Positions 759 to 33,753 are shown, counted from the first letter of the stretch. The stretch: 64,000 nt of DNA from an uncultured Nitrososphaeraceae archaeon (GCA_963729045.1 CAVSMN010000018.1:1-64000); one strand, 5' to 3'. Made by a program: numbers and translations. The notes: generated from the sequence alone by a model not told the origin.

Positions 759-798
759 TATTAGAACCATACTACTCCAGGGAACTTAATCCCCACGC
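759..798 (+). repeat. Array site 1 (left arm A, right arm R3)
   Basis: TATTAGAACCATACTACTCCAGGGAACTTAATCCCCACGC-GTCCAAACT. Confidence 0.9.
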
Positions 799-978
799 GT
801 CCAAACTCAATGATCTTTTATTTGGTAATATAGTAGTGCAAATAAGAAGTGAATATCTCTTAAAGATCTCTTCTAAAATAATAGATTTGATTTGAGAAAT
901 ATAGGTATTGGTTACATTATCATGTTTATTGCTACCCTTGCTGAAATAATTGAATCTACCTACAGCAAGACTAGCTAT

Positions 979-3618
979 CTAACTTCCACCTACAGATACA
1001 GGTGATTGTGACGCTAGTGTCGGTTGTGTTGCTGTTGCTGTTATAGCACCCTGTCTGAGAGCAGCGTCCATATTTACTTTGTTGTCTGCACTAAGTTGAA
1101 CATTCTCTCCGCCTAGATTCATTAGAAGTAATGCATTGACATTGCACCACCGAGATTCACAGGATTTCCACTCACAAGATCTAAACCTGTAGATTGTTCG
1201 GTCAGGTCTATAAAATATTGTGCTTGACCTGGAGCAGTAGAAGCTATTCTCTGTATTGGGACTATTGCGGATTGTGTTGTTTGTCCATCTTGTATTTTAG
1301 CTCCTACAAGTTGAATTCCTTTTTCGTCTGGTAAATTGAGTAAGACTTTCCCACTAGTAAGAATACATGGATCAAATGCTGCAAGTATTCGTGCTTTCCC
1401 ATTTTCCATTGGGGAGGGACCCAAGACAGTAGTTGCGGACTGTGGGGCACAATCTGCAGTGGGTGTTACTGCTCCGTCAAGTGTTCGTACTGTCAATCCT
1501 CCATCATTTCTCACAGTGACTTGATCATTGTTAATATTTGTTTTAGTAACTAGAACCGTCTTTGTAGTTGTAGCTGGTGTTGTAGTTGTAGCTGGTGTTG
1601 TAGTTGTAGCTGGTGTTGTAGTTGTAGCTGGTGCTGTAGATGTAGCTGGTGTTGTAGTTGGTGTTGTTGTAGCTGTACGCTGTGTGTTATCTGTAGTTGT
1701 CATCTGTTATCAGAAATACACTTGGAACCGCTAGGAGCATTCGACCCTGTCTTTCCACCAAACCCTACGATATGAGATCCTGCTGGACATGTTCCATCTG
1801 TATTTTTAGATACTTCTACTTCGGTACGGTGTAGTTGGTGTTTAGTTACATTCGGGACTGTGAGTAATTGTACGTTAAACAATCAGACTGGAATCAGTGG
1901 GCGTTGTAGTTGTAGCTGGTGTTGTAGTTTTGGCCGGCGTAGTTGTTTTCGCTGATGAGTTATCAGAAATGCACTTTAGAACCACTAGGAGTATCTTTCT
2001 GCAAAATCTTTACCATATGAAATCTTTTTGAACATTTTCTATCAGATCTTAGTAGGTAATTCTACTTGTAATGTGGTGTTATAGTGTTTCGGCTATTTGA
2101 AATGCTGTACAGATCTAGTACCTGGATTGACCTGTCCTTTCCACCAAACCCTACGATATGAGATCCTGCTGGACATGTTCCATCTGTATTTTTAGATACT
2201 TCTACTTCGGTCGGTTAGTTGAAGTTTTATTACAATCGGAACAGGTGTATGAAATAATTGTCGACAGAGGCGTTGTAGTTGTAGCTGGTGTTGTAGTTTG
2301 CGCTAGTGTCGCTGATGGTTATCAGAAATGCACTTAGAACCGCTAGGAGTAGCGGTATTAGAACAAACACTACGATATGAGATCCTGCTGAACATGTTTC
2401 ATCTGAATTTTTAGTTACTTCATCGTTTTGGCTTGTGTTTGGCTAGATGGGTTATCAGTTACACATTTAGAACCGCTAGGAGCACGACCTGTCTTTCCAC
2501 CAAACCCTACGATATGAGATCCTGCTGGACATGATCCATCTGTATTTTTAGGTACTTCTACTATCTTTTGGTGTTGTTGACGTTGTTGGTCCCCCTGGTA
2601 ATGTAGTTGTAGATTGGGTAGTACCTGGACCGACACATACACCTACGCTTGTTTCAGCAGTTCCAGTTGGACATTTTCCGTCAAGTCCTTTAGGAAAAGT
2701 TTGTGGTTCTCCTGTAGATATGTGCCACCTGTTTGCCCTGTGGTGTATAGGTCTGTTTTACTGGTGTTGCAGTTGTATCTGTAGTTGTTGATGATTTACA
2801 AGCGGGATCGGTGGGATTAGATTGGCAAATAGGATTATATAACAGGGAAAAGTGATTTGTTTCCTTTTGAGTTCGTATAATGGCAGTGGGGCTCAGTTAT
2901 TGTACGTAGTTGATGATTTACAAACATGGAGCTCGGGAGATCAGTCGTCTGATAACTGTGAGTGTCATGTTTACCTGGATCTGATTAGTTGTACCTGGAG
3001 CCGTCATGTTGTACCTGGGGTTGTTGTTGTACCACTAGTTGTCGATGATTTACAAAATGGAGCATCAGGAGAAGTCGTACAAATATTATTCTTACGGATC
3101 CGGAATCTCCAGGGATGGAACCAGATGGTGCTCCTGTTGTTGTACCTGGCGTTGTTGATGATTTACAAGCGGGATCGGTGGGATTAGATTGGCAAGGATC
3201 GGTATAGAAATAATCTCCCCACAGAACATTTGGTAATTTCTGATGGTGATGGTGATGGTGTTGTAGTCTGTACCTGTCCCTGTACCACATTCTTCCGTTG
3301 TAGCTGCCTGACTACCATTGGGACAATTTACAAGTTCGGGTTCAGTTTCTGGCTCAGTTTCTTCTTCTGGTACTCCAGGCTCTGACTCTACTTCTGGCTG
3401 TTCATTTTCTGATGAGCCATCATCTCCATCTGAACTACTCTCCATCTGAACTACTCTCCATCTGAACTACTACCTCCATCTGAACTACTACCTCCATCTG
3501 AACTACCTCCATCTGAACTAGCAAAGATATTAGATGACATTATCATGGCTGGGTTAGCAGATAGCATCATGGCTAATGTCAAAACTATAGTGAAACTAAC
3601 CGCAACATTTGGATTCAT
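979..3618 (-). pseudogene. Large secreted Thr/Pro/Ser-rich, Cys-repeat surface protein with many frameshifts
   Basis: ATG at 3618 with a signal peptide (MNPNVAVSFTIVLTLAMML), then SSDGG repeats, an EPE tract, DPCQSNPTDPACKS repeats, KNTDGTCPAGSHIVGFGG repeats, TTTPA repeats and a C-terminal domain ending at TAG 979. Joins several ORF-track fragments. Confidence 0.7.
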
Positions 3619-4112
3619 CTCTATTACTCCTCACTGTTGCAGTCATATTTTAAAATCGACTTAAAGTCACATACTAATTTCAAATAATCAGATGAGATGA
3701 GTGCATTGTTACTCATATCTCTATTATCTGTTGTTTTTCTAACGCCCATACTTCTATCCATAATTGGGTACGACTTGTACGCATTTTTGCTGTCAAGACA
3801 CATTATCATGATTGTATACTGGAATCAATATGGTGACTACTATATAACCATTTTATCCCTGTATTATCGATGTTCTCAAAAAATGCAAAACCTGTACTTC
3901 TGTAATACATTTAACAAATCGTTGATTATTTTATTGTTTTACATATGACATCTTAATTTAATAGAATAGGAAAGGTTTGGTATATAATAAAATAATCTGA
4001 TTCTTGTACTCTTTCATTAGTCTAATTATATTCACGTTTGATGTGTGTTCTAACATACTTTTGGGAATGATTCGCAATTCTTAAATATTAATGATGGTAT
4101 TATAATGTCAAC

Positions 4113-4502
4113 ATGATAAAGAAGGAGATTATATTGGCAATATCGATTTCTCTGGTTCTTACATTAGTTCCAACTGCTTACGCTCAAAAGGGCAGCTTTA
4201 TAGTAGAAGTAACATTTATTGACAGTTCAAGAAATGGACCCAATGATGTAAGCTTCTATATAGAAGAATATCCGGAATACTCGCGAGACAATATCGATTT
4301 AATTGATGCAATGTATGATGATGATCCTGATAGTCCGGATGGACAGTATACAACTAGAATAGTTATGCCGTCTGGTTTAATCAATACAAATGAGGATTTT
4401 CATGTTTGTGTGGTTGACGAAGATGATGGAAGTATATATGATTGTTATGAAATGACAAACAGTCCTAAGAAAGGTCCAGAATATCTCACAGTCAGAGTAT
4501 GA
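4113..4502 (+). CDS. Secreted acidic hypothetical protein
   Basis: Signal peptide ending AYA; a Cys pair in the mature part. Confidence 0.75.
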   Translation: MIKKEIILAISISLVLTLVPTAYAQKGSFIVEVTFIDSSRNGPNDVSFYIEEYPEYSRDNIDLIDAMYDDDPDSPDGQYTTRIVMPSGLINTNEDFHVCVVDEDDGSIYDCYEMTNSPKKGPEYLTVRV

Positions 4503-4638
4503 CAAACCATCCATTAATATAATTTTTGACTGTGATTGCAGACCTTGTATATTGGGACTTTCACAACCAAGATCCATTATTTTGCAATATGGTTCCTCTT
4601 TATACATAAAAGTTTGTGTCTCATTCTATTATTGATAC

Positions 4639-4682
4639 TAGAATCCTATTTAAAATACCGATATCTACACGAATCCCCACGG
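4639..4682 (+). repeat. Array site 2 (B, R1)
   Basis: TAGAATCCTATTTAAAATACCGATATCTACACGAATCCCCACGG-ATGAGAATTGTT. Confidence 0.9.
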
Positions 4683-4812
4683 ATGAGAATTGTTTCCAAT
4701 AATATGCCTTGCATGTCCGATTTAGAAGATTATATATAGGTAGTAGGACAAAGTAAGAAATTACTTCTCATTCAATCTTGCAATCTCCTATTGTTCCTGA
4801 ACTACAATTTCT

Positions 4813-4891
4813 TAATTCTAAAACTGCTAGAATATTAGAGTATTGCACCTAGTTAGCAATCCCAATATATTTTTTCCATAGTATTAAAGAT
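4813..4891 (+). promoter_or_regulatory. Conserved 79-bp upstream element of the N/Q-rich protein genes, copy 1
   Basis: Near-identical to 23902-23980, 41738-41816 and 53883-53961. Confidence 0.8.
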
Positions 4892-5340
4892 ATGAATAAA
4901 ACAAAAAATATTCACAACAAAAACAAACTCATTGTCGCATCAATCGCAATAGTAGTAGCATTAGCTCTTTTCGCAAGTCCCATTGTGACCATGGATGATG
5001 CTTTTGCAACTAAAAAGAAAAAGGTAACCAGGCTCACCAATCAATAAATCAATCACAAGCCTCAGTTCAAAATGCCTTGTGTGCTTCTGGTGGAACAACT
5101 TTTCTGTCATGCAATAACGTAAACTCCCAAAACCAAAAGAACAGTGGAAACAATGCATTAGCACAAGACGATGACGATGACGATAACGGTGGAAACTTTG
5201 CAGAACAAAGCATCAGCCAATCACAATCCTCTGAACAAAATAGCCAGGTAGTATCTGGTGGAGACACAATAGGCTCTGGTAACAACATTAACGTTCAAAA
5301 CCAAGAAAACTCTGGCAGCAACGCAGCAGCACAGAGCTAA
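4892..5340 (+). pseudogene. Secreted N/Q/S-rich repeat protein, copy 1 (1-bp deletion in an A-rich run)
   Basis: Collinear with 23981-24433; frame is lost at about 5012-5022 (AAAAAGAAAAAGG). Confidence 0.85.
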
Positions 5341-5545
5341 ACGTAATTTTTTATATTTTTATTCCTTCTTCCAGTTTATTTAATGATTAAACAATTTATC
5401 AGTAATTGCATTTTAGAGCCCTACTTCCATTAGGAACTTTTTACAAAGTTGTGATCTTTTGGTTTGTCATTTTACACATAATTAAAAATAGGATAACGTG
5501 GCCTTATTTGATGCTTTTATATTTATGATTGATATTTAGAGGAGC

Positions 5546-6094
5546 ATGAATAAGACTCTGTTAACATACACAATAATGCTCTTTGGACTTGGTCTTTCCA
5601 TAATATACTATGATCAAGTTGCAGTTGGCCAAAATCTTGATATTAATGATAATGCTGGACCATTTAGCTTTTTAAAAACAGGAACAAACTCTCTTAATAT
5701 TTCAGAACCAATATATCAAACCATCATTGGAAATTTCATAGATACAAAAGAGCTTTCCAATACACCTACACTTGTAACAGAAGAATCATTCCTCGAAGAG
5801 GCAATTATGAAAGACATAGGTAACGTAACAAACAGGATGACCTTTATCAATACATATGATGCTCAATCGGCTGTAATACAGGGAAGAGGCAACGGAACGA
5901 TTGAAACCCAGGATGGTCAAAGCATAGGATGGATATCTTCGGACGTTGGAGTCCTCAGCGAAAAAGGTCCTGTCTTTCATGGAATAATTCTATTTAATGA
6001 CACCAATAGTGAAAAACTATCATTTCTAAATGGTAAATTAGGAATATATAAAGATGCTCCGGAAATCCATAGAACTATTTGGTTGTTGGACTAG
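5546..6094 (+). CDS. Secreted hypothetical protein (GNGTIETxDGQ family)
   Basis: Signal peptide; homologous to 24564-25088 and more distantly to 33096-33677. Confidence 0.8.
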   Translation: MNKTLLTYTIMLFGLGLSIIYYDQVAVGQNLDINDNAGPFSFLKTGTNSLNISEPIYQTIIGNFIDTKELSNTPTLVTEESFLEEAIMKDIGNVTNRMTFINTYDAQSAVIQGRGNGTIETQDGQSIGWISSDVGVLSEKGPVFHGIILFNDTNSEKLSFLNGKLGIYKDAPEIHRTIWLLD

Positions 6095-6144
6095 CTATCA
6101 CCTAATAATTTTTACTACTCTATCATGATATCGAGTCCTCTTGA

Positions 6145-6183
6145 TATGGAACCCTACTACCACTAGGAACTCAATCCCCACGG
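6145..6183 (+). repeat. Array site 3 (A, R1)
   Basis: TATGGAACCCTACTACCACTAGGAACTCAATCCCCACGG-ATGAGAACTGTT. Confidence 0.9.
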
Positions 6184-6258
6184 ATGAGAACTGTTCCTAA
6201 AAACGTTATACAACTTCTTGAATCAAAAGAGAAAGTTTGTTTGTTTCTATTTGTAGAG

Positions 6259-6414
6259 TTATTCTTTTTTATCCTCTTCCTTTTCTAAGATTTCCTTTTT
6301 GATTGATTTGAATATTTTTTTATCCTTTTCTTCTGGGGTATTTTCAGATATTCCTACTAAATTTGATTCCTCAAACGCAAATTCATTTTCTCCGCTGTCA
6401 TTAACCGATGACAT
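6259..6414 (-). CDS. 51-aa charged small protein
   Basis: Hand-translated MSSVNDSGENEFAF...EEDKKE*; the main content between sites 3 and 4. Confidence 0.45.
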   Translation of the reverse strand: MSSVNDSGENEFAFEESNLVGISENTPEEKDKKIFKSIKKEILEKEEDKKE

Positions 6415-6492
6415 ATCAGGAACTTTTATACAAAAAGGATATAACTATCTATGTCTGAGTTTTCTTGAACTTCAGAAGTCATCACTTTATTG

Positions 6493-6524
6493 AGATTCTA
6501 TTCAACCTTGAATCGTATCTCCAC
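6493..6524 (+). repeat. Array site 4 (C)
   Basis: AGATTCTATTCAACCTTGAATCGTATCTCCAC. Confidence 0.85.
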
Positions 6525-6873
6525 ATGTCCGACAAGTAATTGAGTTTAGCAGACGGAATGGAATGAGTAAATTATAAACGTATACGAAAACATGCAAACC
6601 CGTTGTGAGTAAATCAAGGTTATCCATTTCACAGTGGTGCATAAAGCCTTGCATCTTTGTTCTTATAATTATATAAGCGATGTTTTCTAACTCATTGTAT
6701 GTGCTGTGATTACGAAATACCACTAGAAGAAGAAGAACAGGAAAAAACGATAGAAAAAGAAAAGAAAATAATCCAACCACACTTAGAAATCAGAAAGACA
6801 GAAGAAGAACCCATAGCAGCCTAAATTTTTTCTGTTTTTATGTATATGATGCGATAATACATTAGCATTATGC

Positions 6874-6912
6874 TATAGAACCTAACTACCACTGGGAACT
6901 TAATCCCAACCA
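6874..6912 (+). repeat. Array site 5 (A, R1-like; degenerate)
   Basis: TATAGAACCTAACTACCACTGGGAACTTAATCCCAACCA-ATGAGGACTG. Confidence 0.8.
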
Positions 6913-7525
6913 ATGAGGACTGATATTAATATAGCATATAGTCCATCATATGATGATATTTATTATGTAAAATATAAAAATCTGTATCCTCATATGTCGT
7001 TAATATTTAATCGTCTTTGAACATTTCAATTTCCATAGCCTGTAGCGTTTTCCCCATTATTACTACATCAATAACCTGCAAACTCTTCCACCTAGATTAT
7101 TTCTTTTGTAATTTTTAATATTTTCAGCAATAATGATTGCTTAGCTTTCATCGTGCTAGGAGGACTGAAATTGTAGATTATTGAATTGTTAAATAAAACA
7201 GAGTCTGGAGATTCAAAGATCATTGCTTTATATACCTTCCATACTCTCCTATCCAACCATTTCTATTATCTGATGAGTTCTCTTCATATTTGTCTTCACT
7301 AACGGTATGAACTCTTGGTTTTTGTTTAAGGTTGTCCCATCCTCAAACTCTTTTTGAAAAGGATACTATATGGTTACTACCTCATTACCAATAATAAATT
7401 AAATGTTTTATTCATGCTAATTAGACACAAACTAGTATTTACTTTAAGAAAAATTAGTCATATCAAATTTAAGCTTTGTCGTCACATTAAAAGAGTCAAC
7501 TTGGGTGTAGGGAGGTATTAGTGTT

Positions 7526-8017
7526 TTGTCGGATCGATTTAATACTGATAGTAATCTAGATGTTCATACTAACGATAGAGCGAAGACTAAATCCTTAAAA
7601 GCATTTGATTGGATAAAAGCAGCAAAAATAATAAAAGAAAACAGCATTCAAAATGCAAGCATGGGATTAGGTGTTACTTTAGATGATACTATCTCCATAT
7701 TACAAAATGGAAAACCAATAAAAATTACTGACAATATGTTTTTGTCCAGTGACTCTAATCCTGTCCTGATAAACAATGATACTGGAGAAATAGTGAATTG
7801 TTTCTTTAACATCAATGAGCAAGATATGGAATACAACAATCTCTATATTCCAAGTTCAACGGAAGTAACAAAGTTATCAGGATGGTCGAAATCAGCACTC
7901 GCTATTATTAAAGAGGCGTTTTATTATAAAAATATCCAGGAAAACAAATTTTCACAGGTTTATTTGCTATGCTCACTTTTCTACTTCTGGAGGATATTAG
8001 AGTGTGGGTGTCTTTAA
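7526..8017 (+). CDS. Hypothetical protein
   Basis: 163-aa ORF; GGAGG lies upstream of the TTG start. Confidence 0.6.
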   Translation: MSDRFNTDSNLDVHTNDRAKTKSLKAFDWIKAAKIIKENSIQNASMGLGVTLDDTISILQNGKPIKITDNMFLSSDSNPVLINNDTGEIVNCFFNINEQDMEYNNLYIPSSTEVTKLSGWSKSALAIIKEAFYYKNIQENKFSQVYLLCSLFYFWRILECGCL

Positions 8018-8140
8018 CAATTTTCAATGCTCATGGATAAATCAATAAATATCTCGACCGTTATCATTTACCTATTTGATTAGGACTGACCAGTTGTTTG
8101 ATTATGTTTATTTTTTATGTATAGAAGTTATGGATCAGTG

Positions 8141-8180
8141 TATTAGAACCCCACTACCACAAGGAACTTAATCCCCACGG
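8141..8180 (+). repeat. Array site 6 (A, R2)
   Basis: TATTAGAACCCCACTACCACAAGGAACTTAATCCCCACGG-GCACGCGATAAATTTGAC. Confidence 0.9.
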
Positions 8181-8271
8181 GCACGCGATAAATTTGACTA
8201 TAAATTCTCTAACTCGATATCCGTACCTACATAACATGATTATAACATATCATAAATAATAGAAATCTGAA

Positions 8272-9645
8272 ATGGTTAACCCAGATTCATATTCGTCGCA
8301 CTCAAATTTAGGATCTAGTATGGAGCAATACCCAGTGGAGAATTCCGGATGGTCCGAAATAGACGAATGGGGGCCCGAAAAAGTATTGCAGGTATATGAT
8401 CCTGACACTGGTATGAAAGGTGTTTTGGTTATCGACAATACCTCTACTGGTCCTGGCAAAGGAGGAATAAGGTTTGCGGAAAGTGTTACCCCTATGGAGG
8501 TATTTAAGCTTGCAAGAACAATGACCTGGAAATGCGCATCGGCGGGACTACCATTTGGTGGTGCTAAAGGAGGAATTATAGCAAACCCAGGTAAAGTAAA
8601 CCAAGTAGAATGGATTAAATCCTTTGCCAAAATGATAAAACCTTATTGCCCCTCCCAATATATTGCAGCTACTGACGTTGGTACAACCGAATTGGATATG
8701 GCAGTATTTGCACATGAGATCGGAGATATGCGAGCATGTACTGGTAAGCCGCAAGAACTTGGAGGAATTCCTCACGAACTGGGAACAACTGGATACGGTG
8801 TGAGTGTTGCACTAAGAACCACAATTGATTTTTTAAAAGAATCCAAACGTAAAGGATTAAAACCTTCCAGGCCCTTTATTGATCTCACAAACAGTTTAGA
8901 TACAAAAAACAATGATATCAAAGTAGTTATTCAGGGATTTGGTAATGTGGGTTCATTTACTGCAAAATTTCTAAATGATTTAAATATAAAAGTTATAGGC
9001 GTTAGCGATGTCTCGGGGTTTGTATTTGATGATAATGGTTTGGATATTCCGCAATTAATGAGAGATATGAAAGACAAGTCCAAGTTAAGTGATCTGTTAG
9101 ATAATCAACAACAGCAGCAGCAACATCTTTATAATATTTTGGATAAAGATGAAATTTTTAACGTAGATTCAGATGTTTTTATTCCTGCAGCACTGACCGG
9201 TGTTATCAACGATAAGACTGCATCCAAGTTATTAGAACATAATGTGAAGATCATTGTAGAGGGGGCAAATATTCCTACTACACCATCAGCTGATCAATAT
9301 TTAGTGAATAATAATATTTTAATCATTCCGGATTTTCTTGCAAATTCTGGCGGTGTAATCGGATCATTTGTTGAGTATCAAGGTCGAACAGAAAAAGAAG
9401 CCTTTGATCTAATTGAATATAAAATTGCAAATAATGTTAAAAGGGCACTTTACAACTCAGTACAATTAACAGACCAGGAAGGTGATAATTCACAACTTAA
9501 TGTTAGAAAGGTTGCGATGGAAACAGCAAAACAAATAGTATATAGAGCAATGTTATTAAGAAAGGGTGCAATTAGTGTCGCAAGAGAAGCCTATGCAAGA
9601 AAAGAGCGAGTTAATTTATTAGGTAAATTAAATTGTTGTTACTGA
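8272..9645 (+). CDS. gdhA: Glu/Leu/Phe/Val dehydrogenase family, glutamate dehydrogenase-like
   Basis: GPGKGGIRF, MTWK, GGAKGG, IQGFGNVG, EGAN and PDFLANSGGV motifs. Confidence 0.85.
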   Translation: MVNPDSYSSHSNLGSSMEQYPVENSGWSEIDEWGPEKVLQVYDPDTGMKGVLVIDNTSTGPGKGGIRFAESVTPMEVFKLARTMTWKCASAGLPFGGAKGGIIANPGKVNQVEWIKSFAKMIKPYCPSQYIAATDVGTTELDMAVFAHEIGDMRACTGKPQELGGIPHELGTTGYGVSVALRTTIDFLKESKRKGLKPSRPFIDLTNSLDTKNNDIKVVIQGFGNVGSFTAKFLNDLNIKVIGVSDVSGFVFDDNGLDIPQLMRDMKDKSKLSDLLDNQQQQQQHLYNILDKDEIFNVDSDVFIPAALTGVINDKTASKLLEHNVKIIVEGANIPTTPSADQYLVNNNILIIPDFLANSGGVIGSFVEYQGRTEKEAFDLIEYKIANNVKRALYNSVQLTDQEGDNSQLNVRKVAMETAKQIVYRAMLLRKGAISVAREAYARKERVNLLGKLNCCY

Positions 9646-9828
9646 TACAAGTAGATGAGAAAAATTATGATTCAAATCAATTCGATATATTCAATAAAAT
9701 TTATCAAAAAATTTAGTTGGTGTTTTATTGCAATCGGGATCGTTGGAGATTCGATTGACAGAAAGCATCGGCTAGAAGAAATAAAAATACTCAAGTGAAA
9801 AAATTATGATTTCTCTATCTGATTTACT

Positions 9829-10215
9829 TTACAATTGTCTGTCAAATTCTCCGGTTATTACTTTTGAATCAGGGGAAAGAAGCCTTGTCCATTCTTCATA
9901 ACCTTGTTGACATTCCTTATCGTTCGACATTTTTGCACAAAGTTCATCTCTATGTTTCTTATCTTTATACGACATAATGGTTATCCATACATCTTCATCT
10001 GTACTAGCTGAAACTGATTTAGAAATGTTTTCGAATCCTTCCCAACTAGTATTTACTGCAAGTCGAAATAACTCATAATGTATTTCCTCTTTATCAAACA
10101 TTTCAGATGACTTTTTTTCAAGTGCTGTTAATGCTTCGTAATTCCTTTTTGGTGATCGTGCGATCATGAATTCTGAATAACTATAGTTCTTGTTATTACC
10201 TTGTTGATTATTCAT
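9829..10215 (-). CDS. DUF1428-like dimeric alpha/beta barrel protein
   Basis: Paralog of 26478-26879; YKDKKHRD...ITGEF pattern. Confidence 0.65.
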   Translation of the reverse strand: MNNQQGNNKNYSYSEFMIARSPKRNYEALTALEKKSSEMFDKEEIHYELFRLAVNTSWEGFENISKSVSASTDEDVWITIMSYKDKKHRDELCAKMSNDKECQQGYEEWTRLLSPDSKVITGEFDRQL

Positions 10216-10294
10216 ATATGCTTCAAAATTACTCTAGATTGAATAAATAAAAAGGATAACTCCCCAAGGGGAGGTTTATTAATAAGGAAAAAAG

Positions 10295-11495: not shown

Positions 11496-11546
11496 TTAGA
11501 ATCCCATTTAAAATAAAAATACCGATATCGGCACTAATCCATACGG
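11496..11546 (+). repeat. Array site 7 (B with a 6-bp duplication, R2)
   Basis: TTAGAATCCCATTTAAAATAAAAATACCGATATCGGCACTAATCCATACGG-CCCCGCAATAAATTTGA. Confidence 0.85.
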
Positions 11547-11935
11547 CCCCGCAATAAATTTGAAAATTTTTGGATTCAATCTAAAAAATTTGATGAGATC
11601 TATAAGCAAAATATAAGCAAAATATAAAAAACCTTGTTTATCTGATCCCATTCACCCGATAAGAAGAAAGAAATAAGAATCATCCTCTATATTATCGCTC
11701 AAAACATATATACTCAGAATATTAAGTAGACCAGATTATTTGTATGAATCATCACCTTGATTTAGAATTTTTTAATCGGTCACCATAACAATACAAATTC
11801 AACATATGTAACAGATAAAATATGAAATAACATCTGAGTCATAATAAGTAGCAGTAAGAAACATTTCAATACAGGAAAAAACAAGGACAGAATTAATATC
11901 TTTATTAGGCATCTGCAAAAACATATGATTATGAT

Positions 11936-12544: not shown

Positions 12545-12835
12545 AAAATAAAAGGAAAAATTAAGAAAAGACACCAATTTCAGGCTGTTCATTCATTGCG
12601 TAAATGGTTCAAAACTCGAGCTGAAAACGGTGGAATGAAACCAATTAATGTGGAGATTTTGCTTTGTCTCAGCCTGGGAATAAGTTCGTCCTATTACCGC
12701 CTTACAGAAACAGATTTACTTGAAGACTATTGGAAAGTTTTAGATCAGTTGACATTTGATAAACAAGAAAAAATGGAAAGGGAATTGCAGAGAAATCATG
12801 AAGAAATTCAAGAAGAAGAACCCATAGCAGCCTAA
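12545..12835 (+). pseudogene. Tyrosine recombinase/integrase C-terminal fragment
   Basis: KRHQFQAVHSLRKWFKTRAE...INVEILLCLSLGISSSYYR contains the HxxR box and the catalytic-Tyr region. The GH motif is decayed and the N-terminus is absent. Confidence 0.8.
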
Positions 12836-12891
12836 TTTTTGAATTTTTTTTTATTTTGATGTGTAGATTGGCTAATACAAAGTAAAATTAC

Positions 12892-12929
12892 ATAGAACCC
12901 TACTATCACAAGGAACTTAATTCCCACGC
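12892..12929 (+). repeat. Array site 8 (A, R3)
   Basis: ATAGAACCCTACTATCACAAGGAACTTAATTCCCACGC-GCCCAAACT. Confidence 0.9.
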
Positions 12930-13172
12930 GCCCAAACTAGTCGTTCTGTATCGACATATTGAATTGCGTTATCTGTAAAAACATTGCAAATTGAATCACA
13001 TCTGACTCACCTGATACCAACCATTTTTGAATTGGTGATGTTTTCAAGAGTTCAATCAGGATTATACACTTTCATAACTCCATCCATATGGGTGTTTACT
13101 AACTTAGGGTCATTTGTTTGATAATCTGCAAGAACTTGTTTTTATATATTAGAAAAGATAAATGTATTGTTT

Positions 13173-14419: not shown

Positions 14420-14463
14420 TAGAATCCCATATAAAATACCGATATCAGCACTAATCCCCACGA
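14420..14463 (+). repeat. Array site 9 (B, R1-like)
   Basis: TAGAATCCCATATAAAATACCGATATCAGCACTAATCCCCACGA-ATGAATACT. Confidence 0.9.
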
Positions 14464-14571
14464 ATGAATACTACAACTACTTATCCGAGTATTGACATGA
14501 TTAAGTTCAAAAATAAGAATTACGCTTGTATTTAAGATATTCTTAAATATTTAATTATTTCATACAGTCCG

Positions 14572-15496: not shown

Positions 15497-15530
15497 GGAT
15501 TCTATTCAACCTTGAATCGTATCCCTACGG
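15497..15530 (+). repeat. Array site 10 (C, R1)
   Basis: GGATTCTATTCAACCTTGAATCGTATCCCTACGG-ATGAGAACTGTT. Confidence 0.9.
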
Positions 15531-15702
15531 ATGAGAACTGTTACTGACAATCTTACTAATTATTAAATTACGAAGACTGGATCTGGATGATAGAAGTAAA
15601 ACAAGAAATTAATTCTAGGACCTACCATATAGCAAATCATTATTTAGCTTCTATTAATGAGCAAATAACCGAACCAATTGTTCTAAAAAGTTATAGCTCT
15701 TA

Positions 15703-16188: not shown

Positions 16189-16228
16189 TATTAGAACCCT
16201 ATTACCACAAGGAACTTAATCCCACCAG
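16189..16228 (+). repeat. Array site 11 (A, R2)
   Basis: TATTAGAACCCTATTACCACAAGGAACTTAATCCCACCAG-ACCCGCGATAATTTGACC. Confidence 0.9.
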
Positions 16229-16519
16229 ACCCGCGATAATTTGACCATAATTTGGGATTCAGTTTTGATAAGACTGAAATATTACCGTGTTTATCATCCT
16301 TTAATATAATGTAAAAATGTCTGCGCACATCTTTGACCCATAACGATCAAAAACAATCCAAATTGTGATTTCCTTGCAGTGTTAGCCATGATTTCATCTA
16401 TCACAATTAGAGAGAACATGTGATTAAACTGATGACTTATTTCATAAACAACTCAGATAATGGAACCACTTAATCGATTACCTATTGTATTGTAAAACGT
16501 AAAGATCTCACACAAACTG

Positions 16520-19294: not shown

Positions 19295-19328
19295 GGATTA
19301 TGTTCAACTCTGAATCATATCTCCACGA
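19295..19328 (+). repeat. Array site 12 (C, R2)
   Basis: GGATTATGTTCAACTCTGAATCATATCTCCACGA-GCCCACGATAATTTGACC. Confidence 0.85.
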
Positions 19329-19604
19329 GCCCACGATAATTTGACCATATTCTTGGGTATATTACATTTTATAATACTGCCCTTGAATATATTATTAACA
19401 ATATTCAATAATGTTTTTGTAAGCAAAAGTTAATTCTATTTGTATGAAAGTTATTCATGGATACTGGATTGACTTCTTACATTAATCTAATTAGTATTAT
19501 TCGTCCTTACTTATCTTTTAATCAGCAGTCTAACTTTGATATATTTCACTCTTTACTTTATGGTCGAGATTCATTTTACGAGAGTTCTTGAGTCTCCAAA
19601 TGTA

Positions 19605-22371: not shown

Positions 22372-22415
22372 TAGAATCCTATTTAAAATACTGATATCAG
22401 CACTAATCCCCACGG
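22372..22415 (+). repeat. Array site 13 (B, R3)
   Basis: TAGAATCCTATTTAAAATACTGATATCAGCACTAATCCCCACGG-GCCCAAACT. Confidence 0.9.
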
Positions 22416-22565
22416 GCCCAAACTGCTTAATTTTACCAGTCTAATGGTTCAAACCAAACCCAATTCTAAAAGTGGAAAGATTGAATGACGAGGAAACCTA
22501 CATCTATACAGTGTTGATATCTGTTAATAGTTAATTAATTTGATAACTAGAAAATTAACGTGTGG

Positions 22566-23729: not shown

Positions 23730-23769
23730 TATTAGAACCCCATTACCACATGGAACTTAATCCCCATGG
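23730..23769 (+). repeat. Array site 14 (A, R1)
   Basis: TATTAGAACCCCATTACCACATGGAACTTAATCCCCATGG-CTGAGAATTGTT. Confidence 0.9.
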
Positions 23770-23901
23770 CTGAGAATTGTTACTAAATATCGTATCTGAC
23801 TATCAGATTAAAAGGCCGTGTAAAGACAATGGGACTAAGTGAGTAAATAATTCTACTATCCTAATCCCACATTACCTCATAAGCTTTCAGTTCTTACAAA
23901 C

Positions 23902-23980
23902 TAATTCTAAAACTGCTAGAATATTAGAGTATTGCACCTAGTTAGCAATCTCAATATATTTTTTCTATAGTATCAAAGGT
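23902..23980 (+). promoter_or_regulatory. Conserved upstream element, copy 2
   Basis: Near-identical to the other three copies. Confidence 0.8.
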
Positions 23981-24433: not shown

Positions 24434-24563
24434 ACTCAACTCTTTTTCTTTTTTTATTCTACAATCTTGCAAATATAATCAACATTATGATCAAAATATA
24501 TAGTAACCCATCATATTAGTCAAATCAACAAGTATTTATACACACAAAATAAGATAAATCTGT

Positions 24564-25088: not shown

Positions 25089-25266
25089 TTTGACGTAAAA
25101 ACGATATCACGGTACTAAAATTATTTTTTTCATTATTTTTTATTACAATCTCTAGACCTAGGATTAATGTTGGATCTAGGATGTTTTGGATATATTGACA
25201 ATTTTTAATTGGTGAGATGGAGCAATTAACTCTATTACTTTTATCGGATCTGATTTTGTATTGGTG

Positions 25267-25304
25267 TAATAGAATCCCATTGCCACAAGGGACAATCCCC
25301 ACGG
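25267..25304 (+). repeat. Array site 15 (A, R4-like)
   Basis: TAATAGAATCCCATTGCCACAAGGGACAATCCCCACGG-ATATAT. Confidence 0.85.
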
Positions 25305-25642
25305 ATATATTCAATCCGAGACAAAATATTCAGAAATTAACTAAAATTATACTGCTTTCTTTTTAACTACCTAGAGACTACAAATCTAATGCATTTCGTA
25401 GTTTCAAAGTATTGACATTGAACATAAGAAATCAGAAACCAAAATGCAACATTATGCAATGAAAATTAAGGAACAGTATACATTTCTAATATACTTTTGA
25501 TCCCTTGTATACTTATTAGGTATTGGTATGTTCTATTCCTCATGGCTAATCCTAATTTTCAAGAATATCTTTTTGAGTCAATGAAATTAATCAGAAGGAA
25601 GAAGCAGGATCTTTTAGATCCGAATTGCAGGGGAGAGAATAG

Positions 25643-26239
25643 ATGAGTGATAACAAAAAGGCAATGAGAAAATTAAAACTACATGTAGGAATGTCCATTG
25701 ATGGTTGTATCGCAGGACCCAACAATGAAATGGACTGGATAGACTTTACTTGGAATGAAAAACTGAGAGAATATGAAGACAGGTTACACGAGCCAGTTGA
25801 TACCATTCTTCTGGGAAGGAAAATGACTAATGAATTTATTTCCTATTGGTCTAATGTGATGAACAAACCTGAAGACCCCGAATATACATTTGCTAAAAAA
25901 ATGATGGAAACACCAAAAATTGTTTTTACTAAGACACTTAATAAATCAGAGTGGCCAAATACTGAAATTGCAACAGGTGATCTCAAAGATGAAATTACAA
26001 AGTTAAAGAGTCAAGAAGGTGGTGGTGATATCATAGTCTATGGTGGTGCTTCATTTGATTCTTCCTTGATTAAAGAAAACTTGATTGATGAATATTATTT
26101 GTTTGTCAATCCTGTTGCAATTGGGAATGGAAAGACCATTTTTAAGGACCTAAAAGAGATTCGTAAACTATCCCTTATTGAATCAATAACGTTTGACTCT
26201 GGAACAGTTTTGCTCCACTATGAGGTAAAGAAAAACTAA
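25643..26239 (+). CDS. Dihydrofolate reductase / RibD C-terminal family protein
   Basis: MSIDGCIAGP, LLGRK, GGA and LIDEY..V.PV.IG.G motifs. Confidence 0.9.
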   Translation: MSDNKKAMRKLKLHVGMSIDGCIAGPNNEMDWIDFTWNEKLREYEDRLHEPVDTILLGRKMTNEFISYWSNVMNKPEDPEYTFAKKMMETPKIVFTKTLNKSEWPNTEIATGDLKDEITKLKSQEGGGDIIVYGGASFDSSLIKENLIDEYYLFVNPVAIGNGKTIFKDLKEIRKLSLIESITFDSGTVLLHYEVKKN

Positions 26240-26477
26240 AAGTAAGGTGTATCAATAAATGAATGGAAAAGTCAGTTGGTTATTTTTTTTATATTATTCC
26301 ATTTATCCCACTGTCACATAAAGATATCCAGATGGGCTATCTTCTAATGTATTCATTCTTCAAAACTTGATCCACTTTCTATCTTGTTTTATACCATTAT
26401 CTTTGTAGTAACTGGTTTGGATTATTTATTTGCAAAAAAATATGATTATTAATTAGATAAAATCATTATTAGACTAT

Positions 26478-26879
26478 TCAAGATATTTCTTCCGATTTAC
26501 TAAAATCTCCAAACACTATTGGTCCAGGCGTAATGAGTTTCATAGATTCATCATACAATTCGGCCGCCCTTTTATCGTCTTCCAAAGCCTTCATAACCTC
26601 CTGAACATGATTGGTATCTCTGTAGAATTGTATTTCTAACCATACATCCTCGTCATCATTGGCAGAAATGGTTTTTGACAAATTTACAAAGTCCATCATA
26701 TCCTCTCTTGCATTCAACCTATACCCATATTTTGACACGCCGTGTTTCTTGAAAAAAATATCAGTTTGTTTGCCAATCTTTATTAATGCATCATGATTCT
26801 TCTTTGGGGCACGGATGAAAAAAATTTTGAGAACACCACCGGAATCTTTTTGGTTTGCAAAGTTGTCCGAACTACTCAT
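26478..26879 (-). CDS. DUF1428-like protein
   Basis: Paralog of 9829-10215. Confidence 0.65.
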   Translation of the reverse strand: MSSSDNFANQKDSGGVLKIFFIRAPKKNHDALIKIGKQTDIFFKKHGVSKYGYRLNAREDMMDFVNLSKTISANDDEDVWLEIQFYRDTNHVQEVMKALEDDKRAAELYDESMKLITPGPIVFGDFSKSEEIS

Positions 26880-30450: not shown

Positions 30451-30490
30451 TATTAGAATCCTACTATCACAAGGAACTTAATTCCCACGG
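30451..30490 (+). repeat. Array site 16 (A)
   Basis: TATTAGAATCCTACTATCACAAGGAACTTAATTCCCACGG-GCCATCT. Confidence 0.9.
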
Positions 30491-30917
30491 GCCATCTGCT
30501 ACGATGACCATTTCTAAATAATCTAATTAATGTTGATTAGACATATATCCACGAATAAATTGATTTAGCCGTTTAGTCTACTATACTCAAACCTCTTTTG
30601 CACAAACTGAATTGTCGAATCCATTCAGCAATAGTGCCTTGATTAAATTAGATTTAACTAATGAAAGGCTTAACAGGGCCATTTTGATTATAAAATAAGT
30701 ATGGAAACCGATCAAGATTTAGAGGAATTAAAAGAAGAACATGAACAAGAGGAGGAAGAAATAAGAGATAAATTAGAAGAGGAAGAATAGGAACAACGGA
30801 TTAGAGTTCTTACCAAAAAATGAAAAAAACATTCCGTGGAAAACACTGACATCGCAATTATCTCAAGGTACATTATTAGTTAATAATCTTTATATTTTTC
30901 ATTATTCTATATACTCA

Positions 30918-30961
30918 TAGAATCCTATTTAGAATACCGATATTGGCACTAATCATCACGC
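30918..30961 (+). repeat. Array site 17 (B, R3)
   Basis: TAGAATCCTATTTAGAATACCGATATTGGCACTAATCATCACGC-GCCCATACT. Confidence 0.85.
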
Positions 30962-31059
30962 GCCCATACTAATTTTAGATGAATCATCTGGTAAACTTTT
31001 GGATTTGCAGACAATCCATAATGGAATGAAGTTCCAGAAATAATATTAAGTACTTTACA

Positions 31060-32033: not shown

Positions 32034-32077
32034 TTGAATCTTCTTTAAAGAACCGATATCGACACTAATCCCCACGG
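32034..32077 (+). repeat. Array site 18 (B, R4)
   Basis: TTGAATCTTCTTTAAAGAACCGATATCGACACTAATCCCCACGG-ATGCATGC. Confidence 0.85.
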
Positions 32078-32408
32078 ATGCATGCAACATGATACAAGGG
32101 ATTAGACTTCCTAAAGAGAAGACAATTTAGATTAATCGTCTGTCGTTATCTTTGATCTTATCCATAGTGTATCAAATATTGTAGCATAGGAAATGAACTC
32201 CAGTGTCCATTTGATGTTAAAAATTTAGCAGAGTAATTACAAATCTTTGCCATCAGTAAAAATCTCGAAAAATTAAATATACCATAATAACAGCATAATT
32301 TAATATATATCAACATGATGGGACACATTTGTTCTAAGCATAAAGAAGAATTAGAGCGACACGGATTGATTTGTCCCAGAAATACAAATTTTACAGAGGT
32401 GGATTCTA

Positions 32409-32753: not shown

Positions 32754-32989
32754 CAATGACTGAGGAACTGATGAAGTATCTTTCTAAATTTGAATTTAAT
32801 AAAGGACAACTTTTGAAATTAGAATTTAATCAGATACAACAATATTACTGTCTATAGCATTTTTACTATCAAAATAGAATTGTCAACTTTTTTATATAAT
32901 TACTTGACCCGGGCATGAATATTCGTATATGATGACCACCTATTAAAATCAATTAATAATTCTCTCCCCATTTCAGATTACTTATGATC

Positions 32990-33023
32990 TGATTGTATCC
33001 AACCTTGAATCATATCTCCACGG
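32990..33023 (+). repeat. Array site 19 (C, R4)
   Basis: TGATTGTATCCAACCTTGAATCATATCTCCACGG-ATGTATCC. Confidence 0.85.
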
Positions 33024-33095
33024 ATGTATCCATGAGGCAGATAACCACATGGATAAATACAAGTCATTTTTATATATCCTTTTTAATACATTTAG

Positions 33096-33677
33096 TTGAT
33101 GAAAAAACAACCAGCAATTTTAGTTTTAATCGTGATGGTGGTAACAACTATCTATGCACTTTCATTAGGAAATACAGGCTATTCACAACAACAAGGTGAA
33201 AACAGTATTTTGGATTCCATAGATGTGAAAAATACTAATCTGACTCTTGGTAAACCTTTCTACACTGAAAAATTTGAATTTCCATCAAGTCAAAATTCCG
33301 GAGACTCTGAAAATAATAGTGCTTCTGCCAATTCTGTGTACTCCTTTGAAGGTAATGGAACATTAGACAATTTGCAAATAACTGCTTCTGGAAGTGGTAA
33401 TGAAGTTTCAAGAGATGATGGAACTAACTTTCTTACTGGTAGAGCGCTTTTTACCTCTTCTCAAAACGGTACTGCAAGTTATTCCTTTGAGGCCATAACA
33501 AATACTACTGAAGAAGGCATTAGAACAAGTCTAGGGGCTGCATTCTTTGATGCTAACGCAACAGGAAATCTAGAATCGCTTAAGAGTATTGTAGGAGTTT
33601 ATGAATCATACATAGACGAAGGTCACGGAAAAGGGATCTTTGCAATGTGGCATATTAAAGACCTATTACCTAAATAG
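33096..33677 (+). CDS. Secreted hypothetical protein, distant GNGT-family member
   Basis: Signal peptide; P.Y, GNGT, G...F.......L..L....G.Y and terminal W pattern shared with 5546-6094. Confidence 0.7.
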   Translation: MMKKQPAILVLIVMVVTTIYALSLGNTGYSQQQGENSILDSIDVKNTNLTLGKPFYTEKFEFPSSQNSGDSENNSASANSVYSFEGNGTLDNLQITASGSGNEVSRDDGTNFLTGRALFTSSQNGTASYSFEAITNTTEEGIRTSLGAAFFDANATGNLESLKSIVGVYESYIDEGHGKGIFAMWHIKDLLPK

Positions 33678-33720
33678 TAGTAGATTATTAATCTATTTTT
33701 TTATCAGTGTTTGATATTTA

Positions 33721-33753
33721 GGATTATCTATAACGTTGAATCATATCCCATGG
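33721..33753 (+). repeat. Array site 20 (C, degenerate; last clear site)
   Basis: GGATTATCTATAACGTTGAATCATATCCCATGG-ATAAGGAATGTT. Confidence 0.7.

What the first reader, a model, noticed from the sequence alone, without database searches (positions are those of the whole stretch)
759..33753. Left and right arms are shuffled around the core, which locates the crossover
Seen: three left arms. A is TATTAGAACCCYAYTACCACAAGGAACTT (9 sites), B is TAGAATCCYATTTAAAATACCGATATCRGCACT (6 sites) and C is GGATTCTATTCAACCTTGAATCRT (5 sites). Right arms are R1 GATGAGAAYTGTT, R2 GSCCGCGATAATTTGACC, R3 GCCCAAACT and R4 GATGYAT. A, B and C each occur with both R1 and R2 (A-R1 6145, B-R1 4639, C-R1 15497; A-R2 8141, B-R2 11496, C-R2 19295). 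Inference: free reassortment of flanks around a constant ~10-bp core is what repeated strand exchange within ATCCCCACG would produce (hybrid att sites). Duplication of one repeat or MITE would not give this pattern.
Basis: partly seen in the sequence, partly recalled or inferred. Interest (0 to 1): 0.8.

Follow-up and report, generated by a model that had tools for sequence, protein, structure and literature searches.

The report
tRNA-derived att sites bounding gene cassettes
About twenty short repeats in this soil ammonia-oxidising archaeon are copies of the tail of a tRNA gene that mark where small gene packets have been spliced in and swapped, so the region works like a gene-capture array.

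Summary
Twenty same-strand intergenic repeats (759-33778) share the core ATCCCCACG, have three left-arm types (9 A, 6 B, 5 C) and several right-arm types, and A, B and C each occur with R1 and with R2. In 142 sites from four genomes of the genus (Candidatus Nitrosocosmicus by record titles), left and right arm classes are statistically independent. In 73 of 74 in-register homologous site pairs only one flank is shared. All 24 left-flank homologies end at +6 or later, and 43 of 49 right-flank homologies start at +2 or earlier, so exchange maps to the core. Relatives carry the same cassettes next to different neighbours. The core is the T-arm/acceptor segment of an intron-containing tRNA gene (Lys-UUU by my reading). 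That gene sits at the head of the main array in three complete relatives, followed by a divergent tyrosine integrase or its remnant. An integrase C-terminal scar lies in the window (12569-12763). The sites do not fold like integron attC sites. Best reading: a tRNA-anchored array of integrase-mobilised, integrase-less gene cassettes, up to about 160 kb in a relative. Recombinase activity is inferred, not shown. New variant of a known kind.

The parts
759..808 (+). att-like site, A left arm, core 789-797, R3-type right arm
4639..4692 (+). att-like site, B left arm, core 4673-4681, R1 right arm
   Evidence: homology with G046 and G004 cassettes ends at 4679-4682
5415..5445 (+). degenerate A-type left arm without a core (relic site); a G022 cassette match starts here
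6144..6193 (+). att-like site, A left arm, core 6174-6182, R1 right arm
   Evidence: recombinant junctions in G022 and G004
6493..6536 (+). att-like site, C left arm, core 6517-6525 (ATCTCCACA)
6873..6922 (+). att-like site, A left arm, core 6903-6911 (ATCCCAACC)
8141..8190 (+). att-like site, A left arm, core 8171-8179, R2 right arm (continues the tRNA acceptor strand)
   Evidence: metagenome joint 4671->8170
11496..11556 (+). att-like site, B left arm with a 7-nt insertion, core 11537-11545 (ATCCATACG), R2-like right arm
   Evidence: G002 cassette homology ends at 11540
12569..12763 (+). C-terminal scar (65 aa) of a tyrosine integrase of the family found beside the anchoring tRNA in relatives
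   Evidence: tblastn; BLASTP 48% identity to P0001 residues 282-346, E 5e-21
12890..12939 (+). att-like site, A left arm, core 12920-12928 (ATTCCCACG), R3 right arm
14420..14473 (+). att-like site, B left arm, core 14454-14462
15497..15540 (+). att-like site, C left arm, core 15521-15529 (ATCCCTACG), R1 right arm
16189..16238 (+). att-like site, A left arm, degenerate core 16219-16227 (ATCCCACCA), R2 right arm
19295..19338 (+). att-like site, C left arm, core 19319-19327 (ATCTCCACG), R2 right arm
22372..22425 (+). att-like site, B left arm, core 22406-22414, R3 right arm
23730..23779 (+). att-like site, A left arm, core 23760-23768 (ATCCCCATG), R1 right arm
25266..25314 (+). att-like site, A-like left arm, core 25295-25303, R4-like right arm
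   Evidence: right partner of the G022 recombinant junctions
30451..30500 (+). att-like site, A left arm, core 30481-30489 (ATTCCCACG)
30918..30971 (+). att-like site, B left arm, core 30952-30960 (ATCATCACG), R3-like right arm
32034..32087 (+). att-like site, B-like left arm, core 32068-32076, R4 right arm
32990..33033 (+). att-like site, C left arm, core 33014-33022 (ATCTCCACG), R4 right arm
33721..33778 (+). last, degenerate att-like site, C left arm, core from 33745 (ATCCC-ATGG); distal end of the array in the window

Best explanation
The repeats are attachment (att) sites of a tRNA-targeting tyrosine integrase, and the DNA between them is a row of small gene cassettes that carry no integrase of their own. 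The core ATCCCCACG(G) is identical to the end of the T-loop, the 3' T-stem and the start of the acceptor stem of one tRNA gene (Lys-UUU with an intron, by my reading). Circular cassettes that carry a site of the form 'left arm - core - right arm' would recombine with the tRNA or with any existing site. Strand exchange inside the shared core would leave each junction as a hybrid: the left arm is the 3' end of the upstream cassette, and the right arm is the 5' end of the downstream cassette. Repeated insertion, excision and re-insertion would stack and shuffle cassettes, which gives free reassortment of arm types. Shown here: the sites and their strict co-orientation; independence of the arms; homology breakpoints in the core; the same cassettes with different neighbours in relatives; the tRNA origin of the core; the tRNA and an integrase or its remnant at the head of the main array in relatives. 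Inferred: that an integrase of this family catalyses the exchange, that cassettes move as circles, and that the window's own array (inverted relative to the tRNA-anchored array on the same contig) arose by inversion or has an anchor beyond the contig start.
For: 1. Sites are real and clustered. One search gives 17 core matches against 4.83 expected. An nhmmer search of the arrays of four genomes gives 170 of 170 hits on the array strand. The A-arm-plus-core pattern was found in 22 of 24 other same-genus genomes and in 1 of 16 genomes of other families. By record titles nearly all exact matches lie in Candidatus Nitrosocosmicus or Nitrososphaeraceae records.
2. Arms are independent: p 0.62 for 142 sites.
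3. Breakpoints lie in the core. Among 141 site-centred segments, 24 pairs share at least 100 nt of left flank only, and their homology ends at +6 to +40 (none before +6). Forty-nine pairs share the right flank only; 43 of them start at -57 to +2, and 14 of those start at 0 to +2. Only 1 pair shares both flanks.
4. Recombinant junctions were read base by base. G022:C171 joins the window's left side of 6174 to the right side of 25295 within ATCCCCACGGAT. G022:C235 has the order 18794-19328 | 14477-15536 | 25295-25741. G004:C13 places cassette 6174-6910 (94% identity) after a different cassette.
5. Metagenome contigs from other studies show alternative junctions, for example the joint 4671->8170 with 11 shared letters.
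6. The core derives from a tRNA. A tRNA at G012 (Rfam 57.8 bits; ARAGORN) ends in ...GGGGTTCGAATCCCCACGGGCCCGC. It heads the arrays in G012, G015 and G041. The window genome's copy is at C9:2999-3091.
7. An integrase is present. P0001 (414 aa) matches PHROG integrase phrog_1 at E 1.5e-15. In G015 it lies 69 bp after the tRNA, and in G041 it lies at the array head. N-terminal remnants follow the tRNA in G012 and in the window's genome. A C-terminal scar lies in the window.
8. The site at C18:137126 (-) carries as its right arm the native tRNA-downstream flank seen in G012. Insertions at the tRNA therefore pushed that flank away.
9. Gene orientation inside cassettes is random (57 + and 55 -), while site orientation is invariant. 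This argues against a role tied to gene expression.
Against: 1. No recombination event was observed. All the evidence is comparative, and the metagenome joints come from short contigs (shorter side 30-43 nt), which repeats can mislead.
2. The window genome has no PF00589 match at E <= 0.01 and no intact integrase next to an array. The family is so divergent that Pfam scores P0001 below its cut-off (19.7 against 27.1 bits). Its paralogues lie elsewhere (C12, C14).
3. The window's array is on the opposite strand to the tRNA-anchored array on the same contig and starts at the contig edge, so its own anchor is unknown.
4. In G041 the integrase-bearing element is inverted relative to G015. A simple directional integration model does not predict this.
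5. Because all sites share the core, breakpoints cannot be mapped more finely than about 9-11 bp. Associations of single core positions with arms are weak (p 0.005-0.013 in 18 tests).
6. Some cassette boundaries have no recognisable site, for example after the glutamate dehydrogenase gene at about 9683-9827.
7. The arm-independence tests have limited power within single genomes (18-50 sites).
Confidence: 0.7

Rival explanations
1. The repeats are a dispersed REP- or MITE-like element. Cassette shuffling then results from ordinary homologous recombination or gene conversion between copies, with no dedicated site-specific recombinase.
For: The conserved part is about 47 bp, long enough for occasional homologous exchange. 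No intact integrase lies next to the arrays in the window's genome. Some deletions in metagenome contigs are not at cores, for example 11577->12508 with 10 shared letters.
Against: Arms of different types share only the core of about 9-11 bp, yet they reassort freely. Homologous exchange would favour partners with the same arms and would place breakpoints anywhere in the shared arms. The sites are confined to arrays on one strand (170 of 170) and are not dispersed. No terminal inverted repeats and no hairpin were found. The core equals a tRNA 3' segment, and an integrase sits beside that tRNA.
Confidence: 0.1
2. The site-specific mechanism is the same, but another enzyme catalyses it: the single small serine recombinase of the genome (C12:250206-250649) or an unrecognised protein, rather than the tRNA-adjacent tyrosine integrase family.
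For: One Resolvase-family gene is present. The tRNA-adjacent integrase is only a remnant in the window's genome and in G012, yet both genomes have large arrays.
Against: The serine recombinase is not near any array. Tyrosine integrases of the P0001 family sit next to this tRNA and next to paralogous tRNA genes in all three complete relatives. Integrase scars lie inside arrays (G041:278896).
Confidence: 0.1
3. The repeats are expression signals (terminator, promoter or a small RNA) kept between genes, and their shuffling is incidental.
For: There is a T-rich tract at -62 to -30 upstream of the left arm. Many right arms in relatives extend into a conserved TATA-like stretch (...AAATGATACTTTATATGGTAATGATA).
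Against: Site orientation is invariant while cassette gene orientation is random (57 + and 55 -). No Rfam family matches in the window. There is no conserved fold across the site. Expression signals would not explain why homology breaks in the core, or why the core is identical to a tRNA segment.
Confidence: 0.07
4. A canonical integron: IntI with folded attC sites.
For: There is an array of gene cassettes separated by co-oriented repeats. The cassette gene content is typical of chromosomal integrons (GNAT, DUF1428, SnoaL, isochorismatase).
Against: Left and right flanks are no more complementary than shuffled pairings (p 0.27-0.37). RYYYAAC and GTTRRRY occur together in 2 of 142 sites, and GTTRRRY in 8 of 142 against 4-13 in controls. 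Cassette genes are not co-oriented. The exchange point is in a duplex-type core shared with a tRNA.
Confidence: 0.02

Closest known systems
tRNA-anchored genomic islands built by repeated integration (tycheposons of Prochlorococcus; bioRxiv 10.1101/2020.12.28.424599, passages read)
   Same: Integration occurs at tRNA genes by tyrosine recombinases. Partial-tRNA repeats flank and punctuate the island. New elements push older ones further in. Integrase fragments are scattered through the island. The integrase-bearing element beside the tRNA in G015 and G041 has an integration module plus a primase (PriX) module, like the tycheposon layout.
   Different: This is an archaeon. Sites occur every 1.8 kb or so (median), with dozens per array (59 nhmmer hits in one relative's 160-kb stretch). 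Cassettes are mostly one or two genes and have no integrase. Conserved arms flank the short tRNA-derived core on both sides. Whether the integrase belongs to the tycheposon clade was not tested.
Integrons, especially sedentary chromosomal integrons (archaeal examples: Sci Adv 2022, PMC9668308, passages read)
   Same: These are large arrays of small, interchangeable gene cassettes separated by co-oriented recombination sites, with similar accessory gene content. In two of the relatives examined a tyrosine recombinase sits at or near the head of the array.
   Different: There is no attC-type fold and there are no R boxes. The exchange point is a core shared with a tRNA gene. Cassette genes are not co-oriented. 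The integrase is a divergent phage-type integrase; it was not tested for the IntI-specific insertion.
Tandem accretion of cis-mobilisable elements and SCC / pseudo-SCC composite islands (named from my own knowledge and from earlier scan notes; no paper read here)
   Same: Recombinase-less units bounded by att repeats stack at one chromosomal site and are thought to be moved in trans by a recombinase encoded by a related element.
   Different: Those arrays hold a few units of several kb in bacteria. Here there are tens of units, mostly of one or two genes, in an archaeal genus.
Integrated mobile elements of Thaumarchaeota (Krupovic et al. 2019, PMC6563490, passages read)
   Same: In that survey 57% of integrations were in tRNA genes. 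The att sites are short (median 17 bp). Arrays formed by re-use of an att site are mentioned.
   Different: The main text does not mention Nitrosocosmicus (0 occurrences), and no multi-cassette array of this kind appears in the passages shown.

Membership tests
Integron (IntI / attC) | attC site folds as an imperfect hairpin: left and right halves are complementary | tested here: not met
   DNA duplex energy of the real left and right flanks equals that of shuffled pairings in three window settings (p 0.27, 0.33, 0.37; 142 sites)
Integron (IntI / attC) | R'' RYYYAAC and R' GTTRRRY boxes at the site ends (consensus recalled from my own knowledge) | tested here: not met
   Both boxes occur in 2 of 142 sites. 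GTTRRRY occurs in 8 of 142 against 4-13 in five offset controls. RYYYAAC occurs in 45 of 142; by my reading of the sequences this comes from the C arm's ATTCAAC
Integron (IntI / attC) | Cassette genes mostly co-oriented with the array | tested here: not met
   The longest ORF is on the + strand in 57 and on the - strand in 55 of the 112 modules (of 117) with an ORF of at least 60 aa
Integron (IntI / attC) | IntI-type integrase with its specific extra domain next to attI | not tested
   A tyrosine integrase is at or near the array head in relatives, but no IntI-specific test was run
tRNA-anchored tandem integrative-element island (tycheposon-like / accretion) | Direct repeats identical to the 3' part of a tRNA gene | tested here: met
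   The core AATCCCCACGG, and in R2 arms GGCCCGC, equals the tRNA's T-loop end, 3' T-stem and acceptor strand
tRNA-anchored tandem integrative-element island (tycheposon-like / accretion) | Intact tRNA gene at one end of the array, with repeats in its orientation | tested here: met
   Met in G012, G015 and G041. In the window's genome the tRNA is on contig C9, whose first 2.2 kb match G041's array. The link to the window's own inverted array is not shown
tRNA-anchored tandem integrative-element island (tycheposon-like / accretion) | Site-specific recombinase gene beside the tRNA or att site | tested here: met
   In G015 it lies 69 bp after the tRNA. In G041 it lies at the array head. Remnants follow the tRNA in G012 and in the window's genome. 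Match to phrog_1 integrase at E 1.5e-15
tRNA-anchored tandem integrative-element island (tycheposon-like / accretion) | Units present or absent, or with other neighbours, in relatives, with junctions at the repeats | tested here: met
   metagenome contigs
tRNA-anchored tandem integrative-element island (tycheposon-like / accretion) | Excised circular forms and empty sites within a population | not testable with these tools
   Only assembled contigs of public runs were available; raw reads of a culture are needed
REP / MITE-type dispersed repeat | Genome-wide dispersal on both strands, with a palindromic or terminal-inverted-repeat structure | tested here: not met
   Hits cluster in arrays on one strand, and no cross-site complementarity was found

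The most novel reading that the evidence does not exclude
Candidatus Nitrosocosmicus may have an independently evolved, integron-like gene-capture system. A tyrosine integrase resident beside one tRNA gene would use the tRNA's T-arm/acceptor segment as the primary docking site. It would move a large pool of integrase-less cassettes, mostly of one or two genes, in trans; each cassette carries a conserved duplex att site of about 47 bp. This would build arrays of tens of cassettes (30-160 kb) that account for much of the genus's accessory genome and are exchanged between species.
Probability: 0.4. Interest if true: 0.85.

Novelty: new variant of a known kind. Interest (0 to 1): 0.65.

Why it matters
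Nitrosocosmicus species are widespread soil, sediment and skin ammonia oxidisers with unusually large genomes for their group. If these arrays are active, they are a main route by which the genus gains and reshuffles accessory genes such as acetyltransferases, hydrolases, regulators and secreted proteins. They would also be a natural archaeal counterpart of integrons that uses ordinary double-stranded att sites derived from a tRNA. The sites are short, well defined and numerous. The system is therefore directly testable with an integrase, a tRNA-attB and a cassette site, and could become a tool for site-specific insertion in archaea that are hard to manipulate genetically. For annotation, the repeats give exact cassette boundaries in every genome of the genus.

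Tried and rejected
1. Rfam at gathering thresholds and ARAGORN on the window found nothing, so the sites are not a known RNA family or tRNA genes.
2. I suspected an attC-like hairpin because inverted repeats flank three sites by eye (4673, 6903, 15521). Across 142 sites this is no more than chance, so I rejected it.
3. I considered IS200/IS605-type single-strand transposition, TnpB and serine recombinases. The window's genome has no Y1_Tnp and no TnpB zinc-ribbon match, and one Resolvase gene far from the arrays.
4. I considered a casposon-type origin. The arms are not inverted repeats of each other (read by eye); this was not pursued further.
5. An ungapped flank comparison gave too few pairs (4 and 6). 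I replaced it with gapped BLAST.
6. An 'empty site' test using the window's distal flank (33800-39600) failed. Only G041 is collinear, and there the flank lies about 100 kb from the array end, in the arrangement that mirrors contig C18.
7. IMG/VR viral contigs hold no exact match to two site patterns.
8. Association of single core positions with arms suggested that positions 0, 1 and 7 go with the left arm and position 8 with the right. This is too weak, after 18 tests, to place the cut.
9. Two readings are only hints: weak complementarity 'across the module' (p about 0.025 in 2 of 3 settings), and a promoter reading of the long R3 arm.
10. Metagenome depth and uncovered parts were not used as evidence.
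11. Literature searches for a description of this array in Nitrosocosmicus (passages) found none. Supplementary files were not opened and might list integrases or islands.

Full report
OBSERVATION. The nonamer ATCCCCACG, allowing one mismatch, occurs 17 times in the window against 4.83 expected; none of 100 shuffles reached 17. Fourteen of the hits lie on the + strand between 789 and 33014. Repeat finding, site listings and alignment give 20 sites, all on the + strand and all between ORFs (ORF list). The sites at 5415, 16219 and 33745 are degenerate.

A column-by-column profile over 142 sites from four genomes shows one conserved block from about -27 to +19 relative to the first core base, with its peak in the core. 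A and C arms share the columns -16 T, -14 C, -12 A, -11 C and -7 to -5 GAA. R1, R2 and R3 share +14 A, +16 A, +17 C and +18 T. The 'arm classes' are therefore clusters inside one site of about 47 bp.

WIDER SETTING. The window is the first 64 kb of a 143-kb contig (C18) of a 2.85-Mb, 87%-complete genome. A profile search of the genome finds a second set of sites on the minus strand of the same contig at about 73-140 kb, and small clusters on contigs C1, C8, C13 and C17. The A-arm-plus-core pattern was found in 22 of 24 other same-genus genomes and in 1 of 16 genomes of other families; that one hit has two mismatches. By record titles the genus is Candidatus Nitrosocosmicus. A handful of exact 17-mer hits in unrelated bacteria are in the range that my own rough estimate of chance gives for a collection of that size. 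In three single-contig relatives the sites form long one-strand arrays: G041 about 160-322 kb, G015 about 531-637 kb, G012 about 1087-1175 kb. After orienting these arrays, 170 of 170 nhmmer hits lie on the array strand.

Genes between the sites are accessory genes: glutamate dehydrogenase, two DUF1428 genes, SnoaL, GNAT, isochorismatase, amidohydrolase, RibD_C, MarR, a methyltransferase, a PhnB-like protein, polysaccharide deacetylase and several secreted proteins without a family. Over 117 modules the median length is 1757 bp (interquartile range 1061-3376). The longest ORF is on the array strand in 57 and on the opposite strand in 55 of the 112 modules that have an ORF of at least 60 aa.

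Left and right arm classes are independent across the core. For 142 sites chi2 is 12.8 with permutation p 0.62; per genome, p is 0.07 (G041, 50 sites), 0.34 (G015, 37), 0.81 (G012, 18) and 0.40 (the window's genome, 37). The right arm at the start of a module and the left arm at its end are also not significantly linked (115 modules, p 0.12). These tests have limited power and depend on my classification thresholds.

WHERE HOMOLOGY BREAKS. A BLAST of window 700-17000 against 34 genomes of the genus shows cassette-sized matches whose ends coincide with cores. Examples are window 6174-6910 at 94% in G004, 5414-6186 at 92% in G022 and 9827-11540 at 95% in G002. Junctions read base by base show the following:
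- G022:C171 carries the left side of the window's 6174 site joined to the right side of the 25295 site; the switch lies within ATCCCCACGGAT.
- G022:C235 has the order 18794-19328, 14477-15536, 25295-25741.
- G004:C13 places 6174-6910 after a RibD_C cassette, whose homologue in the window is 19 kb away.

I then compared 141 site-centred 609-nt segments from four genomes and kept in-register hits:
- 24 pairs share at least 100 nt of the left flank only. Their homology ends at +6 to +40, and none ends before +6.
- 49 pairs share the right flank only. Forty-three start at -57 to +2, and 14 of these start at 0 to +2. Six start further right, inside the gene.
- One pair shares both flanks.

The two flanks of a site therefore have separate histories, and the switch lies in the shared core. 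It cannot be placed more finely because the core is common to all sites. Single-position associations are weak.

Contigs of four public metagenome runs from four studies add alternative junctions. One is a joint 4671->8170 with 11 letters common to both sides. Another joins the 15521 site to the cassette that follows the 4673 site in the window. The shorter sides of these joints are only 30-43 nt, so they are supporting evidence only.

STRUCTURE. By eye, three sites are flanked by 7-8-bp inverted repeats. Over 142 sites, however, real left and right flanks pair no better than shuffled pairings (p 0.27-0.37). The integron R boxes are absent (both in 2 of 142 sites). The sites are therefore not attC-like.

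ORIGIN OF THE CORE. At the head of the G012 array lies a tRNA gene (ARAGORN; Rfam tRNA 57.8 bits, E 5.7e-12, full length, with an 18-nt insert in the anticodon loop). ARAGORN calls it Leu(TAA). From the loop CUUUUA plus the insert I read Lys(UUU) with an intron at the canonical position; this is my inference. Its 3' end is ...GGGGTTCGAATCCCCACGGGCCCGC. The core is therefore the last two T-loop bases, the 3' T-stem and the first acceptor bases. R2 arms, and partly R3 arms, continue the acceptor strand.

The same tRNA (95-100% identity) lies at G012:1175527-1175618 (-), G015:514164-514255 (+) and G041:339074-339164 (-). In each case it is upstream of the array and in the array's orientation.

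The window genome's copy is C9:2999-3091 (-). The first 2.2 kb of C9 match G041's array at 94%. The site at C18:137126 (-) has as its right arm the native tRNA-downstream flank of G012. This is what insertion at the tRNA predicts. It also suggests that the end of C18 adjoins the start of C9.

RECOMBINASE. Pfam's integrase model finds nothing in the window's genome at E <= 0.01. A 414-aa protein at the head of G041's array (P0001) matches PF00589 only weakly (19.7 bits) but matches PHROG integrase phrog_1 at E 1.5e-15. No PDB sequence matches it.
- Its closest homologue in G015 (65% identity) starts 69 bp after the tRNA. It is followed by a conserved cluster that includes a PriX-domain protein.
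- In G012 and in the window's genome, an N-terminal remnant follows the tRNA.
- Paralogues at 37-47% identity lie elsewhere, and several are next to paralogous tRNA genes.
- The window itself holds a 65-aa C-terminal scar at 12569-12763 (48% identity to P0001, E 5e-21), with the HxxR box and the tyrosine region recognisable by my reading.

MECHANISM. I conclude that the sites are att sites of a tRNA-targeting tyrosine integrase and that the modules are cassettes moved in trans. Exchange in the shared core makes every junction a hybrid, which explains the reassorted arms. The steps not shown are catalysis by this integrase family, circular intermediates, and the origin of the window's inverted array. 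An inversion between two sites in opposite orientation would give the convergent layout seen on C18 (+ array, about 40 kb of ordinary genes, - array). G041 is collinear with this layout. This remains inference. The inverted position of the integrase element in G041 relative to G015 is unexplained.

COMPARISON AND NOVELTY. The principle is known: repeated integration at a tRNA gene leaves partial-tRNA repeats, integrase fragments and stacked elements (tycheposon preprint, passages; Krupovic et al. 2019, passages). Functionally the array resembles a chromosomal integron, but it fails three of the four integron features tested. The new elements here are the host (an archaeal ammonia oxidiser genus), the density and number of sites, the small integrase-less cassettes, and the conserved arms around a very short tRNA-derived core. 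My searches of the held library found no description of this array in Nitrosocosmicus (passages); supplements were not read. Earlier notes of this scan list comparable tRNA-anchored cassette arrays in other phyla. I did not check those notes and do not count them as support.

Noticed in passing
window 4813-5366, 23902-24460, 41285-41816 (-), 53429-53961 (-): A small gene for a secreted, Q/N/S-rich protein of about 150 aa, together with its upstream region, is present in many copies. Two copies are 100% identical over at least 300 nt (41300-41599 = 53445-53744). Dozens of matches at 75-91% identity occur across the genus, inside and outside arrays. It may be mobile in its own right.
   Followed up: partly
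window 1122-3500 (-): A large repetitive gene region has 18-nt tandem units encoding Thr/Pro/Ala-rich repeats (TTTPATTTTPA...) and 97-nt repeats. It is probably a surface protein. Metagenome contigs show many length variants here.
   Followed up: no
G000 contig C18:73000-140000 (-), beyond the window: A second array of the same sites lies on the opposite strand, converging on the window's array across about 40 kb of ordinary genes. It appears to be the array anchored at the tRNA on contig C9.
   Followed up: partly
relatives' arrays, right arms at +9 to +45: Many right arms in G041, G015 and G012 extend into a conserved stretch, CGCCCAAACTAAATGATACTTTATATGGTAATGATA, with a TATA-like box. It could be a cassette promoter or part of the integrase-binding arm.
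   Followed up: no
window 11577-12508: One metagenome contig (run X8) lacks 930 bp, which removes the helix-turn-helix gene 11936-12508. Ten letters are shared at the joint, and the deletion is not at a core.
   Followed up: no
L022 (G041:321500-337500) and L023 (G015:515500-531500): Between the tRNA and the array lies an element of about 14-17 kb. It holds the integrase, a PriX-domain protein and a conserved protein of about 700 aa without a Pfam or PHROG family. It is inverted in G041 relative to G015.
   Followed up: partly
window 9684-9826 and 26240-26480: These are cassette boundaries inferred from relatives (the end of the glutamate dehydrogenase unit; the end of the RibD_C unit, which is followed by a site in G004). 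No recognisable site remains at either place in the window.
   Followed up: partly
G000 contigs C1:4749-5815, C13:8557-9622, C18:138811-139896 (-): A two-cassette block is present three times at 92-96% identity, twice near contig ends. This may be real duplication or strain heterogeneity in the assembly.
   Followed up: no
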